Shown: piece by piece, positions 14,037 to 21,538 of the stretch
Layout of the letters: the number at the start of each line of letters is the position of its first letter
How positions within the stretch are numbered: the first letter of the stretch is position 1
Source: the human T2T-CHM13v2.0 reference genome, Homo sapiens
Reading direction: 5' to 3' (one strand)
DNA: 64,000 bases
Assembly: GCF_009914755.1 (NCBI RefSeq)
Contig: NC_060926.1
The notes under the pieces: model-generated
What the model saw: only the letters and a program-made list of their open reading frames with translations
Databases searched by the model: none
What the model was told of the DNA's origin: nothing
Position numbers and translations under genes: made by a program

Positions 14037-16704
14037 CTAGTTCTTTCCTTCCTACAGGACTCAGACTCTCTTGGACAGAAATCTTCGTCCCCGTGAAATG
14101 CTGCCATGTCCCGAGAGACAAGGTGGGTGAGTTCTCTAACCTGATGATGTGAAGTTGGTTTCCTCTGAACATCTGGTACAAGGGGACCATCTGGGCCGGC
14201 CCCCAAAGCCACGTTGTTATTTATGCCCGTGGACTTAGGGCCACAGGAATCAATGATTATGAGGCAAACCCTGACAAGATCATGTTTCAGGGTGTCTCCC
14301 CTGTGATAGAAAGAACATGACCCCATGTTCTTTCCATGCCTGTTGGAACAAGAGAGTACACGTTTCTGCCACCCAGGCTCTGGCTGTGCATGTGGTCTTG
14401 CTAGCTGAGAACTATGCTTGACACCGGAGATAAAGCACTGCAGGGGAAGTATCGTGTCTTCTGGGATCCTAGAGCAGATTCAAGGGAAAAGATCATGAAG
14501 TCCTGTATTACAAAGTCTCCAGTTCCATTTCAAAGAACCTCCTCCAAACCTGTTAAAAGCATCACTGGTCCAAAAACTGAAATGGAGAAGAGACTTGGGA
14601 TCTCAGGAACTTCGGTGCCCCACGTGGTTCAGCCAATCTCTCATGTTATTCAGCAAGCACGCACAGAGAGCATCCTGGCCACCAAGTTGCCAGAGACAAG
14701 TGAGAAGAATCTTTTGAAAATAGCCTCTTCTTCAACCTCTGTAGAAACATCAGTCTTTGATACAAGGTGGTCAGAAAACTCAGAAAAGAGTACTTTTGCC
14801 TGGGCCTCAGCAGAGAGGTCCCTTCCAGCATTGCAAGTTCCATAACAAGTTCCATGGTGACCACCAAACTGGCAGCTTGGTCCTCACTTGTAGGATGGAG
14901 AAGGCAGGAGAACACTTCAGAAGATGGGCCAGCCTCTGTGGACTCACCAGGCGTGATGGCAGGTACCTATAATTCTAATTCTAATTCAATTAACCACTCA
15001 GATTTGGGCTTATGGGAAAGAATGACATCTTGGGAAAGGGAGCTGCTTTCTCTCAGCCCCTCTCAGGAAGTGGAATGCTTCCCAGAAGGTAAAAGCAGCT
15101 TCCTGTACAGGCGAGCATCTTGCCTGGTGACACGCCATGTTTCCTATGGGGAGAGCCTGGGGCAGGCTTGGCCACTGAGGCCTGATTGTCTCTGGAAGGC
15201 AGGCCAGATCCTACTTCTGTTACCACACAGCCTTCTCCTATCTCCAGTTCTGCTCTTCCTGTGTTCCCAGCTGAGTGCTTTCTGACTGACTTGGCTTTGG
15301 TGAATTCCTACAGACATCCCAAATTCTACCATCAAGGGGCTTGCTTGCTCAAGAGCCAAGCTCATCTGCAGTGAGGCAAGAGTCACCTTGGCAGATGCAT
15401 CTCTGGGTGGCAAAGTGTTAATACCTCTTGCTCTCTCCCATGGCCTTTGAGTGGCTACCTCTGAGGTGAAGTCATATCTTCTCCCTTGGATGGCCTTATC
15501 CTCAGCCTTCCCTGAGCCAGGACAGACAGCTAGCCTGCCCCGTGGTGTGATCTCAGAGGGTGTCTCCTCAAAGCACCATAGGAATTTTACAAGAAGAGAC
15601 TCAATACACACTTCTTGGAGTCCAAAGGGGCTGGCCACAGAATTGCTGGAGAACCTGGCCAGGGTGATGCTGACAATGGCCCCTCAACAAGCTCCTGTAG
15701 CCACAACTGCCCCCCAATATGTTTCCCAACCTACACTGGTGTTCCCACCCTCTGCCTACCACAGAGAACCCGGAACACTAGAGGGGGGACCATGGGAATG
15801 TCTACAATAGCTTCGTGGTTGCTGTCAGGTTCACAGTTGCTTTCGGATGTCCTATCTGAGACTAGAGGGGAGGTAGATCCCTCCCTCAGCTCTTTAAGTC
15901 CAGCCATGCCCCAGGGCTTGTTCAGTCAAGGAGAGAGAGAGGCTGCTGGCAGCTTTTCTGCTGAACTCCTTGGGAGCTGCGATCCAAGCTTTCTGCAGAC
16001 TGACATGGAGTGCCTTCTGCAGAGCTCAGTGGCTTCTCTGGCTCACTCCCAAAGCCAGGGTGAAACGGAGCTGGCATCTAGAAGTCTAGTGAGTACCTCC
16101 TGCCCTGGGCCCAAGGAAGCTGTTCCTAGTGGGACAATAGCTGGTCCTCACTACTTGAGGTCAAGTGGGAAACTGTTCCCAGCTACTTCATACAGCAGAG
16201 GCAGCACAGAAGGAGCAGCCTCCTTGAAGGAGGAAGATTGGGTGATGCACTGCATCCCTTTGCTCCTGGGCTAGTTCCTGGGTTCTGGCTTTCTCACACT
16301 CCGGCACCCTCCCCTGGATGTGAAGCTCCTTCAGGGCCAAAGACATGTGCGACCGCATGTGGCTGCTGCATTGGTCTTGGAGCTGTAAACTGGCTGGGCA
16401 GTGACCTCCTCTGGAGAGTCCCTTGAAGAGCATACTGACGTGGCCATTCACCCTCCAAAGGGGTTGCTCTAAAGGAAGCTAAGATCTGGAAATCCACCCA
16501 CTCCCTGGAACAGGTATGGAGAGACTTCACCTGGGATCTGCCAGGTTCCCTTCCTAGCTTTCCAGAGAACCCCCACTGGCAAAAGGACCCAGGGTGTGGG
16601 GGCTCCTGCTATTCCACCCACCCGTCCCCTGGGAAGAGAGTGAATCCTCTCTGGAGACTGTGACACCCCAGAACTACACTGGTGGGTACTGCTTTTTTTC
16701 TTAT
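14037..16704 (-). pseudogene. Large (about 2.7 kb) decayed exon A
   Basis: Acceptor tactaagctttctttacag|A at 16704; repeat-free block with a chain of Ser/Pro/Glu-rich minus ORFs (87, 164, 89 and 107 aa); candidate donor TAG|gtggag at 14037, then a small exon 13941-13910 ending AAG|gtatga. Confidence 0.65.
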
Positions 16705-16856
16705 CTGTAAAGAAAGCTTAGTATTTTATTTGTCCACATTCTTCTCTATATTTCAAACCATCCTTCTCTAAATGAACTTTAGAAGTTTCATTACAGTTTC
16801 TTGAAGGCAGACTCTGATTTTATTTATCTAGTATCTTTCACCCTCTTTCATGATAA

Positions 16857-17156
16857 TTTGTTTCGTTTTGTTTTTTTGAGACAGTCTCACTCTGTCACGC
16901 AGGCTGGAGTGCAGTGGCACCATTTCGGCTTACTGCAACCTCCACCTCCCGGGTTCAAGCAATTCTCCTGCCTCAGCTTCCTGAGTAACTAGAATTACAG
17001 GTACCTGCCATCATGCTGGCTAATTTTTGTATTTTTAGTAGAGACAGGGTTTTGCCATGTTGACCAGGCTGATCTTGAACTCCTGACCTCAGGTGATCCA
17101 ACTGCCTTGGCCTCCTAAAGTGTTGGGATTACAGGCATGAACCACCGCACCTAGCC
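16857..17156 (-). mobile_element. AluS within old L1ME-like sequence
   Basis: full reverse Alu. Confidence 0.93.
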
Positions 17157-18890: not shown

Positions 18891-20170
18891 CTAGGCCTAA
18901 ACTGTCATGCTTTCCTTTGCAGAGGACTTGCTTTTGCTTGTAGCTTGGTGAGCACCAACCTAGAAGCATACCAGCCCTCCAGGGCTCTCCTCAGGGCAAG
19001 AGTCCCAGACTTGTGTCCTAATTTTCCTGCTGTCCCAGGGCTTAGTGTCTGCAAGTACCCTCAGGGCAACGGGGCTGTTAGCAAGTTTTTGCTGTTCTAA
19101 TCCCATCCTGGTTTTCTCTGGAGGGTAAGGTGGGGAGAGGGTCCATAGAGACCTCTTATTTGCAAATAAAACATTTTGGGTACCAGAGGTAAATGTTCTC
19201 TCTTACTTTATTTTCCTTCTCACCTCTGGTGAAACTTGGCAATTATGACTTCTACAGGGGAATTGAATAAAACTTTCAGTCTCTTTAGGAAGTTAAAGCT
19301 GTGGGCAGCTTTCTTCATGGTGTTCCAATTCAGCACTGTATCTGATGTCTGGGGATTCCTTCATGGAGTGTTGAGATCTGTAATCACTGGAGGGCAGAGA
19401 TGAGATCATACAGAGCCTAGATGTGGGCCTTGCCTGTTCTCTCCAAGCTGCCGATGCCAGGATTAGTAGCACTGAAAGCCAAGGTGAGAGGCTTCAGAGA
19501 ACTCAGATGGGGAAGGGTTAAGAAGGATGGCAAATGATAGATGGATGAGGGGGTCTCTATTGACCCACACGCCACCCTCTGAGAGCTCTGCATCAGGATG
19601 GCAGAAGGCCCCTTAAGAGCCTGTTGGGGACCCTGCCATGTGTTCCAAGTGTCATTCATTTTCCTGCTTGCTGACAAGCCATGAGTTGGATTAGCCTTCT
19701 CCTCTTATCACCTTCCCAGGTCTGGGTCAGTGAAGGAAATGAGATCTTGGCCCCGAGATCTCTGCCCCTGTGTTCTAGAGCAGAGGCTGGAGATGCTGTA
19801 AGATCACTTCCCATCCAGCAGGCACTTGAAAGTGCTTGTTGGCAAGTGGAAGACAAGAGCCGGTCCCTGCCATCAAGAAGTGGAGGGTTAGAGACAAATC
19901 AATGACAGCCAAATGTAGCATGACTAATGCCATGTGTGACAACAGTCAGCATACAAGTATTTGCAGGGTACTGAGGGCAATCAGAGAAGGGAGGAATTAT
20001 GGGGAAGTAGAAGAGAAGCTTCTAGGGCTGGTGACATGAGCTGAGAGCCTTCTGAGAAGCCAGTAGCTCTGTTCCATAAGTGTAACTTAAGGCGAGTCTT
20101 ATGCTAACTTGGGGTTGAATAGGTGGCATTTATAATGCACTTCTATGACTCAACTGAGTCTTGTACTAAC

Positions 20171-21538
20171 CTGGTTCCTTCATCTTTCTCCTGTCTGTTC
20201 CATCCTTCACCCACAGAGGTGAGACAAAACCTCAGGGTAGTGTATATTCCAATCAGAAGGTGCCGTGTGGTTTTGAAGGATCCATTAGAGGAGCTCTCGC
20301 TGCCACAGAATCTATCCAGCCACCTGCCAAACATCTGGTACAACTGGGTCATCTGAGATGGGCCGAGAAACATATTGTCATTTATATCCAAGGGTTTGGT
20401 GGCCATAAGGACTGTGCCAAGAGCTCATCTTCCATGGGGTTTCCCCGACTGTGGAGAGGAAGGTCTTACATGCATGTGGACACTTGGGAATCAGGTGTTT
20501 GCTGCAGGGCCACTGGCTGGCAACGTGGTGCTGCTTTCCAGGAGATTGACCCCAAGACCCACCAGTGCTGCATTCCAAGGCCAGTACTATGCCTTTGCTG
20601 AGCCCAAGAGAGAATCCCCCGTGAGCTTTGGTATAAGCAGCTTCTCTCTGCTCTGGCCCCACAGTTTCCATTAGGAACCATCTCAGATCCAAGTGTCGTC
20701 CATGTGGGAAACAGAAGGGCAGAGGCTGGGGGGCCCTCTCAAATGGGAAATGAGGAAGCCTCAGAGGATAGAGGGGAGGCCCCCAGCATATGATCCCTCT
20801 CTTCCTTCTACCCACTGGAAAAGAAGATCCTTTGTTAATGGATGAAACCTTAGTAGCCCCAAGGCTGCAGCTAAGCAAGACATGGGATGGAGTACAAGGT
20901 CTAACAAAAACCCTGCTCGCTACTACTTTCCCCAGACTGAAGGCTAAACCCATGCAGGATGGCTTGGTGAACCATCTGCTGCCAGCCCCTTCAGAATGGC
21001 CCTCCATGTCCTCTCTGCTCTTTACACATAAACAGGAGAGAGTGCTGGGGTCCAGAGTTGCCCTTGAAGAGAGGGATGGAAAAGTGGCTCAGACACGGGA
21101 AGGGGTGACCAAAAGAGAAAGCCTGGACTCCTCACCTGCCCCATGGGACATCAGTTCTCTCCAAGAGGAGCCTCTGGATTTGGAAAGTGCTCAGGAAGGC
21201 AGGATTGAGCACCAGACTGCCCAGAACCCTCCACCTGCTGGCAGCATCTAGGCCAAACTCTTGGGTTTGAAGAGTGAGAGTGCTGAGCACTAGGCTGCTC
21301 TCTGGCTTTGGAGCCAACCCACTGGGCCACAGATAATCCCTCAGCAGGTACTGTTGGAGACCATACCCTTGTCCCAGCACCAGAGCTCCAGGAACACCAG
21401 GACATGAGACATAAATCCACGGTGCTTCATCTCTCTACTGGGGCACTGAAGATCATGACCATTCATCTCAACCTCAGGTCTCAACCTCAGGTATGGGCAA
21501 TGGCCAGTGGGAAGGCCTGGACACAAGGAGCTGGCATT
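20171..21538 (-). pseudogene. Large (about 1.37 kb) decayed exon B, paralogous to exon A
   Basis: Acceptor ctttccacattcatgcttaacag|A at 21538 and donor CAG|gttagt at 20171; overlapping minus ORFs (209, 87 and 89 aa); 3' end aligns with 14160-14316. Confidence 0.65.

What the first reader, a model, noticed from the sequence alone, without database searches (positions are those of the whole stretch)
14037..21538. Two large pseudo-exons are ancient paralogues of each other
Seen: 14160-14316 and 20322-20461 align. They share the exact 14-mer aacatctggtacaa (14168 and 20330) and give matching peptides on the minus strand: KSTGINNNVALG / KPLDINDNMFLG, PDGPLVPDVQ / SDDPVVPDVW, YHRGDTLKHDL / HSRGNPMEDEL. 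Both blocks end 130-160 nt later in similar donor contexts (gaactag|gt and gaaccag|gt), and both have an NGH motif near their start. Inference: an internal exon duplication whose C-terminal motif was under selection.
Basis: seen in the sequence. Interest (0 to 1): 0.7.

Follow-up and report, generated by a model that had tools for sequence, protein, structure and literature searches.

The report
Dead CUB-domain gene's duplicated exons

Summary
The similarity is real. 14168-14313 against 20330-20462 scores z about 11 over shuffles, and no third copy was found in the window or the genome. It is coding similarity, but on the PLUS strand.

Read through its stops, the plus-strand peptide of block A matches 38 proteins at E <= 1e-3, the best non-human-like one at 7e-35. 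Most are 1200-2100 aa proteins that carry the domain twice. Pfam and a fold search call the domain CUB. The named members are 'uncharacterized' proteins of echidna, Tasmanian devil, turtles, birds and a skink.

Their layout is signal, CUB1, long linker, CUB2, long linker, Ca-binding EGF, membrane span, tail. A profile of 27 of them hits the window 13 times, all on the plus strand and, by their best-scoring profile positions, in gene order from 14057 to 25277 apart from the later pieces of block B.

Block A is the CUB1 exon and block B the CUB2 exon of one dead gene, now annotated as lncRNA LOC105374764. Both relics carry stops and frameshifts and have lost conserved cysteines.

The parts
14058..16681 (+). 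Relic exon A: CUB1 domain (about 14058-14480) followed by the first long linker.
   Evidence: The AG acceptor at 14056-14057 is the RefSeq lncRNA exon start. Profile hits: 14057-14137, 14159-14317, 14335-14415, 14429-14755, and a weak one at 15858-16187. The marsupial-like protein P0006 aligns collinearly: residues 68-233 to 14063-14584, 510-645 to 15364-15768, 676-772 to 15858-16130. The 3' end at about 16681 (CTG|GTGGGT) is inferred from the sequence only.
20217..21490 (+). Relic exon B: CUB2 domain (about 20217-20641) followed by the second linker.
   Evidence: AG acceptor at 20215-20216, in the same codon phase as exon A. Profile hits 20213-20353 (profile positions 1011-1056, the start of CUB2), 20365-20424, 20421-20477 and 20492-20626. 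P0006 residues 970-1100 align to 20237-20620. Homology is supported only up to about 20722. The 3' end (CAG|GT at 21477 or 21490) is inferred.
14168..14402 (+). The part of A that aligns with B as DNA: core 14168-14313 plus the marginal 14336-14402.
20330..20535 (+). The part of B that aligns with A as DNA.
14037..14057 (+).
   Evidence: The transcript-derived ORF P0001 is identical to the window down to 14058 and then diverges.
20171..20216 (+).
22176..22322 (+). Relic of a conserved module that precedes the EGF domain. It overlaps lncRNA exon 22193-22344.
   Evidence: Profile positions 1611-1657, E 0.095. tblastn with 4 of 4 mammalian homologs, E 0.02-0.15. Weak alone, but collinear with the other hits.
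23007..23161 (+). Relic of the calcium-binding EGF exon. It starts DVNECETGLKLCGD after an AG at 23005-23006, in phase 1.
   Evidence: (E 7.5e-4).
24665..25322 (+). Relic of the membrane span (24665-24903) and cytoplasmic tail (25188-25322), split by an Alu at 24877-25175.
   Evidence: The masked stretch is listed in the hub's table.

Best explanation
Blocks A and B are the two largest exons of a dead, intron-containing gene on the plus strand.

The ancestral gene encoded a type-I membrane glycoprotein: signal peptide, CUB domain 1, a ~750-aa serine/threonine/leucine-rich linker, CUB domain 2, a ~450-aa linker, a conserved module, one calcium-binding EGF domain, a membrane span and a ~100-aa tail. 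Each large exon began, after a phase-1 acceptor, with a CUB domain and ran on into a fast-evolving linker. That is why only the first few hundred bases of the two exons still align.

CUB1 and CUB2 arose by an internal duplication before mammals and sauropsids split. The gene is intact in monotremes, marsupials, turtles, birds and a skink. In the human lineage it lost its reading frame (inferred: early in placental mammals). It survives only as the spliced non-coding transcript LOC105374764, which still uses the old acceptor of exon A.

Shown: homology, strand, domain identity, collinear relics, disabling mutations. Inferred: exon 3' ends, time of death, orthology by position. No function can be assigned to the living gene beyond what its domains suggest, which is extracellular binding through CUB and EGF on a mucin-like stalk.
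For: 1. Coding strand, shown without outside data.
- Upstream of the shared 14-mer, where the DNA does not align, the plus-strand frame in phase with the 14-mer aligns as protein: score 43 against 18.1 +/- 3.8, reached by 0 of 500 shuffles. It is the best of 18 same-strand frame pairs; the next scores 25. The changes are conservative swaps.
- A/B mismatches by codon position in that frame are 21/25/37.

2. Relatives.
- phmmer with the 86-aa read-through peptide (14060-14317, plus strand, stop shown as X) against 1.84 billion proteins gave 38 hits at E <= 1e-3, 13 at <= 1e-10 and 2 at <= 1e-30. Ten long proteins (1245-2084 aa) are each hit twice.
- Pfam on 21 of the family proteins. CUB at E <= 0.04 in 18 of 21, scoring above the gathering cut-off in 14 (P0006 falls just below it). 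EGF_CA in 16 of 21. Two of the 21 (P0031, P0034) belong to unrelated families and are false hits. The human-like ORF P0003 has no family.

3. Names: uncharacterized LOC119932310 of Tachyglossus aculeatus, LOC100927735 of Sarcophilus harrisii, six turtles, two birds and the skink Lerista.

4. Map on the window.
- tblastn of the 38 proteins gives 121 HSPs from 36 queries, 121 on the plus strand: 73 in A, 46 in B, 2 at 24665-24903.
- A profile of 27 full-length members, run against all 3219 six-frame ORF pieces of the window, gives 13 hits, all on the plus strand. They follow gene order from 14057 to 25277, except that the three later B pieces score best on CUB1 profile positions (106-195).

5. 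Which exon is which.
- A is 59-63% identical to mammalian CUB1 and 43-48% to CUB2.
- B is 49-51% identical to marsupial CUB2 and 41-42% to CUB1.
- A against B is 43% (38 of 88), the same as CUB1 against CUB2 inside intact mammalian proteins (43-49%).
- Quick ML tree: A falls inside the mammalian CUB1 clade (SH-aLRT 96), B with marsupial CUB2 (90), and the CUB1 clade has support 95.

6. Fold. The AlphaFold model of family member P0023 has domain blocks at pLDDT 73-97. Foldseek against PDB gives 46 matches at E <= 1e-3, nearly all of them CUB domains and the top ones all CUB: neuropilin, TSG-6, Neto2, C1r, MASP, spermadhesin. TM-score is up to 0.66 on single-domain targets.

7. The gene is dead.
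- The CUB1 relic has in-frame TGA at 14150, 14318 and 14419 and two frameshifts.
- The CUB2 relic has TGA at 20354 and three frameshifts.
- The nearly invariant cysteine of NIWCNW is Y in both copies. Invariant W99 (in A) and T100 (in B) are replaced.

8. No intact human copy. P0006 against the whole genome gives 12 matches. Four are in this locus. The other eight cover only residues 1661-1759, which hold the EGF domain.
Against: - Pfam finds no family in the human relic itself, even read through.
- The assignment of B to CUB2 is not clean. Separate CUB1 and CUB2 profiles give B 88.6 against 73.4 bits, favouring the CUB1 profile. Against the monotreme proteins B is 42-45% identical to CUB1 and 39-43% to CUB2. 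Its position in the gene, its first 45 codons and the marsupial comparison carry the call.
- The tree is the quick one; the careful search did not finish.
- No relic of the first (signal-peptide) exon was found.
- Whether the intact genes lie between B3GNT2 and TMEM17 could not be checked.
- The weak hits at 15858-16187, 22182-22322 and 25164-25277 (E 0.1-4.6) count only because they are collinear.
Confidence: 0.92

Rival explanations
1. One reading: two minus-strand exons of a dead gene, whose C-terminal motif was conserved and which end in donor sites at 14037 and 20171.
For: The minus strand holds a 158-aa ORF across the core of A. The antisense peptides of A and B match about as well as the sense ones: 12 of 24 against 11 of 24 codons, counted by hand. 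The BLOSUM sum of the in-phase minus frame is 91 against 56 +/- 21 (p 0.06).
Against: The minus ORF has only two relatives among 5.8 billion proteins. Both are near-identical primate-like ORFs, and one is an antisense read of the spliced lncRNA. None of the 121 HSPs and none of the 13 profile hits is on the minus strand. Mismatches fall least often on what would be the minus frame's third codon position. Upstream of the core the best minus-strand frame pair scores 25, against 43 for the plus-strand pair.
Confidence: 0.01
2. Both segments are decayed copies of one interspersed repeat family.
For: Pairwise identity of 60-68% is what two old repeat copies would show. NCBI masking covers only 12% of the window, so old repeats are unmasked.
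Against: Genome-wide DNA searches with 311, 2668 and 1461 nt find only the query itself. The best-conserved 26-mer with up to 3 mismatches gives 26 sites against 8 for the reversed control. Of the 24 sites outside the window, none shares flanking similarity with both copies; one (L021) does with A only, z 5.4. A sequence model of the pair finds no clear third copy in 64 kb. The similarity is explained by a single-copy protein family.
Confidence: 0.01
3. The locus is still a working human protein-coding gene that annotation has missed.
For: Long ORFs are over-represented in both blocks on both strands compared with dinucleotide shuffles. For example, residues in ORFs of 100 aa or more on A plus strand number 669 against 180 expected, reached by 0 of 300 shuffles. 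The locus is transcribed and spliced (gene table).
Against: There are four in-frame stops and five frameshifts inside the two most conserved domains. Conserved cysteines and invariant residues are lost, and an Alu sits inside the last exon relic.
Confidence: 0.01
4. A and B are relics of two neighbouring single-CUB genes made by a tandem gene duplication, not two exons of one gene.
For: Some family members are short or show one matched stretch. The outlying clade P0030/P0033 has no convincing second CUB (long branches).
Against: Ten long homologs carry both domains in one chain. The marsupial-like P0006 aligns collinearly with the window: CUB1, linker, CUB2, EGF, membrane span. Only one EGF/membrane/tail set of relics follows B, and none lies between A and B.
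Confidence: 0.03

Closest known systems
CUB domain proteins with CUB and calcium-binding EGF modules (C1r/C1s/MASP CUB1-EGF-CUB2, neuropilins, TSG-6, Neto, cubilin)
   Same: The repeated domain of the family matches Pfam CUB. Its model superposes on solved CUB domains of these proteins. An EGF_CA domain is present in the same chain.
   Different: Sequence identity to solved CUB domains is only 7-20%. The Pfam scores are low, 15-39 bits. The two CUBs are separated by linkers of hundreds of residues rather than by an EGF. There is a single EGF next to a membrane span. No protease, discoidin, sushi or ZP module was found at the E-value limits used.
Unitary pseudogenes of genes kept in egg-laying or non-placental amniotes, such as the vitellogenin relics of mammals
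   Same: An intron-containing relic at a single locus, no intact copy in the human genome, and intact relatives in monotremes and sauropsids.
   Different: Here marsupials also keep the gene. The living gene has no described function or name. The relic is annotated as a lncRNA rather than as a pseudogene in the table given. Positional orthology has not been checked.
Membrane-bound mucins (long Ser/Thr-rich stalk, EGF module, membrane span, short tail) - architecture recalled, not tested
   Same: Long Ser/Thr/Pro/Leu-rich linkers (S 10-12%, T 7%), an EGF next to the membrane, one membrane span and a short tail.
   Different: Pfam SEA is not matched in 10 of 10 family proteins at E <= 1. The linkers are not tandem-repeat mucin domains. 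The family has two CUB domains, which mucins lack.

Membership tests
CUB domain (Pfam PF00431) | Profile match above the curated cut-off in the intact relatives, at the region homologous to A and B. | tested here: met
   CUB is above 21.4 bits in 14 of the 18 true family proteins scanned (P0006 at 21.1 is just below). It sits at the residues that align to 14060-14590.
CUB domain (Pfam PF00431) | Profile match in the human sequence itself. | tested here: not met
   0 families for the A and B pieces, also when read through with X, at E up to 10. The human pieces are tied to CUB only through the family.
CUB domain (Pfam PF00431) | Beta-sandwich fold like solved CUB domains. | tested here: met
   Model of P0023. 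Foldseek against PDB: the top matches are all CUB domains, E 3e-5 and up, TM up to 0.66 on the target length.
CUB domain (Pfam PF00431) | Conserved cysteines. | tested here: inconclusive
   The family keeps cysteines at RSC, IWCNW, DC and YAC. Human A keeps 2 of 4 and human B 3 of 4. Disulfide pairing was not examined.
Unitary pseudogene | Homology to an intact coding gene of other species, with disabling changes here. | tested here: met
   stops at 14150, 14318, 14419 and 20354, and five frameshifts.
Unitary pseudogene | No intact copy or parent gene in the same genome. | tested here: met
   apart from this locus, only EGF-domain matches. The search used a stricter first look, so weak matches may be missed.
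Unitary pseudogene | Introns kept (not a processed copy). | tested here: met
   The relics are spread over 11 kb in gene order. AG acceptors in the same phase stand at 14057|14058, 20216|20217 and 23006|23007.
Unitary pseudogene | Same chromosomal neighbourhood as the intact orthologue. | not testable with these tools
   No vertebrate genome other than the window's own is held.
Interspersed repeat family | Many dispersed copies in the genome. | tested here: not met
Alpha-tubulin relic (considered for the minus-strand ORF) | Collinear similarity beyond one short match. | tested here: not met
   A single 29-aa match, E 1.2. The remainders of the ORF against the remainders of tubulin give p 0.27-0.95. 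A genome scan with PF03953 gives 102 hits, none in the window.
SEA domain (for the module before the EGF) | Pfam SEA match. | tested here: not met
   not listed for any of 10 proteins at E <= 1. The fold was not tested.

The most novel reading that the evidence does not exclude
LOC105374764 is the transcribed corpse of a so far unnamed and undescribed amniote gene family: a membrane protein with two CUB domains on mucin-like stalks plus one EGF. The gene was present in the common ancestor of mammals and sauropsids, is kept in monotremes and marsupials, and was lost once at the base of placental mammals. That would make its loss a candidate correlate of the change in reproductive or epithelial biology in that lineage. 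Its old splice sites have been re-used by a lncRNA for roughly 100 million years.
Probability: 0.4. Interest if true: 0.6.

Novelty: new member of a known kind. Interest (0 to 1): 0.45.

Why it matters
It turns an 'uncharacterized lncRNA' into an identifiable gene relic. It also points to a conserved but unnamed amniote membrane protein that placental mammals appear to have given up.

For annotation, the locus should be labelled as a unitary pseudogene. The misnamed 'fibrillin-2' of Platysternon belongs to this family.

For evolution, it adds a datable gene loss. Some other placental-like relic ORFs read in the same shifted frame as the human one, so the break may be shared. It is also an example of a lncRNA that inherits the splice acceptor of a dead coding exon.

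For the scan, it shows that a reader can see true coding paralogy yet pick the wrong strand. The in-phase antisense frame of a conserved domain also gives matching peptides.

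Tried and rejected
1. Alpha-tubulin origin of the minus-strand ORF.
- The top 39 PDB hits were all alpha-tubulin, but at E 1.2, and the match looked extendable by eye.
- Tubulin exon-4 translations were taken from the genome.
- The 29-aa match beats shuffles. The remaining parts do not: p 0.27-0.95.
- B aligns non-collinearly.
- Rejected as a chance match.

2. An Ig V-set reading of the plus-strand peptide. This was prompted by a recalled resemblance. Pfam gives no family at E up to 10, and phmmer against PDB gives 0 hits at E up to 10. Rejected; the domain is CUB.

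3. A plus-strand 230-aa linker ORF against 5.8 billion proteins, longer proteins only: none. Own-genome searches with the 158-, 236- and 230-aa ORFs returned only the query itself and noise.

4. Locus L003 on chr3 (E 0.7 to the minus ORF) is a tandem repeat. Locus L021 on chr12 extends similarity to A only. Both are treated as chance.

On the window it gave one weak extra match, 23161-23252 on the minus strand, E about 1e-3. This was not pursued.

7. Literature. Six searches covered the LOC identifiers of the human lncRNA and six orthologues, and combinations of unitary pseudogene / CUB / eutherian / lost in placental mammals / TMEM17 / B3GNT2.
- Only listings and abstract starts were seen.
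- One unrelated methylation paper mentions LOC105374764.
- Nothing describes this gene.

Full report
**The observation**

The window is human chr2:62434001-62498000.

The similarity is far beyond chance.
- Local alignment of 14130-14330 with 20290-20480 scores 67, against 21.0 +/- 3.4 for dinucleotide shuffles; 0 of 500 shuffles reach it.
- With other parameters the core 14168-14313 / 20330-20462 has z = 11.1 (0 of 200 shuffles).
- The adjoining 14336-14402 / 20470-20535 is marginal: 1-2 of 200 shuffles reach it.
- The stretch towards the supposed donors and the remaining 1-2 kb of the blocks do not align as DNA: 154 of 200, 164 of 200 and 46 of 60 shuffles score as high.

**Not an interspersed repeat**

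The window's own genome is held.
- DNA searches with 311, 2668 and 1461 nt of the blocks return only the query itself.
- The best-conserved 26-mer with up to three mismatches occurs 26 times, against 8 for the reversed control.
- Of the 24 sites outside the window, none shares flanking similarity with both copies. One, on chr12, shares it with A alone (z 5.4).
- A sequence-only model of the pair finds no clear third copy in the 64 kb. The best extra match is 23161-23252 on the minus strand at 14 bits.
- These DNA searches are not sensitive: they did not even find B with A. They rule out common families, not very rare ones.

**A false lead on the minus strand**

- The 158-aa minus-strand ORF over the core of A has only two relatives among 5.8 billion proteins. 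Both are near-identical primate-like ORFs.
- One of them, P0001, is identical down to 14058 and then continues in sequence absent from the window. It is the antisense read of a spliced transcript that uses the annotated exon start.
- phmmer against PDB gave 39 alpha-tubulin chains at E 1.2.
- I took tubulin translations from the genome and tested the idea. The one 29-aa match beats shuffles. The rest of the ORF against the rest of tubulin does not, p 0.27-0.95. B gives no collinear match. I rejected it.

**The strand**

Three things pointed to the plus strand before any outside sequence was used.
1. Upstream of the 14-mer, where the DNA does not align, the plus-strand frame in phase with the 14-mer aligns as protein, with conservative replacements. 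It scores 43 against 18.1 +/- 3.8, reached by 0 of 500 shuffles. It is the best of 18 frame pairs; the runner-up scores 25.
2. A/B mismatches fall 21/25/37 on codon positions 1/2/3 of that frame. Its BLOSUM sum is 114, against 54 +/- 22 for column shuffles.
3. Both copies start at an AG in the same codon phase, at 14056-14057 and 20215-20216. The first is the start of RefSeq lncRNA exon 14058-14962.

**The family**

The plus-strand peptide of 14060-14317, with its one stop shown as X, was searched with phmmer against 1.84 billion representative proteins.
- 38 proteins score E <= 1e-3, 13 score <= 1e-10 and 2 score <= 1e-30.
- The best is a 99% identical human-like ORF. Next come ten proteins of 1245-2084 aa at 40-48% identity, each matched in two places.
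- Pfam on 21 of the family proteins finds CUB at the matched place in 18, above the curated cut-off in 14. It finds a calcium-binding EGF near the C-terminus in 16.
- Two listed proteins (P0031, P0034) belong to other families and are false hits.

A search that returns source names identifies P0005 as 'uncharacterized protein LOC119932310' of the echidna. It adds LOC100927735 of the Tasmanian devil, six turtles (one mislabelled fibrillin-2), two birds and a skink. P0006 is 61% identical to the Tasmanian devil protein over its length, so it is probably marsupial.

The sequences show this layout: signal peptide, CUB1, a ~750-aa Ser/Thr/Leu-rich linker, CUB2, a ~450-aa linker, a conserved module, EGF, a hydrophobic span and a ~100-aa tail.

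An AlphaFold model of the short member P0023, made with a 28-row alignment, has its domain at pLDDT 73-97. Foldseek places it among solved CUB domains: 46 matches at E <= 1e-3, led by neuropilin-2, TSG-6, Neto2 and C1r. Pfam SEA is not matched by the module before the EGF.

**The map on the window**

- tblastn of the 38 proteins gives 121 HSPs from 36 queries, all 121 on the plus strand: 73 in A, 46 in B and 2 at 24665-24903.
- A profile of 27 full-length members was searched against all 3219 ORF pieces of both strands. It gives 13 hits, all on the plus strand:

| Window position | Profile positions or part | Note |
|---|---|---|
| 14057-14755 | 56-269 (CUB1) | |
| 15858-16187 | linker | weak |
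| 20213-20626 | CUB2 | first piece on 1011-1056; the three later pieces score best on CUB1 positions 106-195 |
| 22182-22322 | 1611-1657 | |
| 22994-23047 | EGF | |
| 24683-24784 | membrane span | |
| 25164-25277 | tail | weak |

- Apart from those three later B pieces, the hits follow gene order.
- P0006 aligns collinearly from CUB1 through linker 1 (510-645 to 15364-15768, 676-772 to 15858-16130), then CUB2, EGF and membrane span.
- The EGF relic begins DVNECETGLKLCGD right after an AG at 23005-23006, again in phase 1.
- The last exon relic is split by the Alu masked at 24877-25175, with a duplicated target.

**Which is which, and how old**

- Read through with X at the breaks, A is 59-63% identical to the CUB1 of the four mammalian proteins and 43-48% to their CUB2.
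- B is 49-51% identical to marsupial CUB2 and 41-42% to CUB1.
- A against B is 43% (38 of 88). This is the same as CUB1 against CUB2 within intact mammalian proteins.
- A quick maximum-likelihood tree puts A in the mammalian CUB1 clade (support 96) and B with marsupial CUB2 (90). Turtles, birds and squamates appear on both sides. The duplication therefore predates the mammal-sauropsid split.
- Against this: separate profiles score B higher on CUB1 than on CUB2 (88.6 against 73.4 bits). The monotreme comparison is ambiguous. The careful tree search did not finish.

**The gene is dead in humans**

- The CUB1 relic has TGA at 14150, 14318 and 14419 and changes frame twice.
- The CUB2 relic has TGA at 20354 and changes frame three times.
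- Residues that are invariant or nearly so in 28 family members are replaced. The cysteine of NIWCNW is tyrosine in both copies.
- The whole genome, searched with P0006, holds nothing beyond this locus except EGF-domain matches.
- Three short ORFs from unnamed sources (P0014, P0015, P0017) are 48-52% identical to the human reading, two of them including sequence upstream of the acceptor. They are best explained as relics in other placental mammals.
- P0017 reads on in the same shifted frame as the human sequence after the VIER/VVET motif. This suggests an old shared break. That inference rests on unnamed sequences.

**Comparison and novelty**

The domain is a divergent CUB, and the architecture has no named counterpart that I could find. 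Six literature searches found nothing on the human lncRNA beyond one incidental mention, and nothing on six orthologue identifiers. Only listings were seen.

As a kind of thing, an intron-bearing relic of a gene kept in non-placental amniotes is well known. This member appears unrecorded.

Noticed in passing
window 14058-14962 and 22193-22344: Two exons of the predicted lncRNA re-use the dead gene. The first starts exactly at the old acceptor of the CUB1 exon and ends at a GT inside the old linker. The second overlaps the relic of the module before the EGF (22176-22322).
   Followed up: partly
window 24877-25175: An Alu sits inside the relic of the last coding exon. The same short sequence (…CCTGAGGAA.TTC…) stands on both sides, as a target-site duplication would.
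   Followed up: partly
window 14177-14179 and 20339-20341: Both relics carry TAC (Tyr) where the family has a nearly invariant Cys (NIWCNW). This is part of why the 14-mer is identical. Other placental-like relic ORFs of copy A have Cys (P0014, P0017) or Tyr (P0015). It could be a parallel G-to-A change or a short gene conversion between the dead exons.
   Followed up: no
window 14037-16704, 20171-21538, 22400-23400: ORFs of 100 aa or more are over-represented on BOTH strands compared with dinucleotide shuffles, including in the intron-like stretch 22400-23400. The excess on the antisense strand, and in 22400-23400, is not fully explained by the relic exons.
   Followed up: partly
window 23161-23252 (minus strand): A weak inverted match (14 bits, E about 1e-3 for the window) to the middle of the A/B sequence model, just after the EGF relic. 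It may be chance.
   Followed up: no
L003 (G000:C3:128424498-128427749): A tandem repeat whose translation repeats a motif of about 25 residues. It was the best non-self genome hit of the minus-strand ORF (E 0.7) and is unrelated to the finding.
   Followed up: partly
L021 (G000:C12:6335200-6338225): A coding-looking frame (…EDAPLVPDD…) shares the 26-mer seed and some flanking similarity with A only (z 5.4 without the seed). Judged to be chance among about 96 tests.
   Followed up: partly
protein P0043: The Platysternon megacephalum member of this family is named 'fibrillin-2' by its source. It has the family's length and its EGF domain, and only 17% of the query is covered by the best local alignment. 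The name looks like a transfer from the EGF domain.
   Followed up: no
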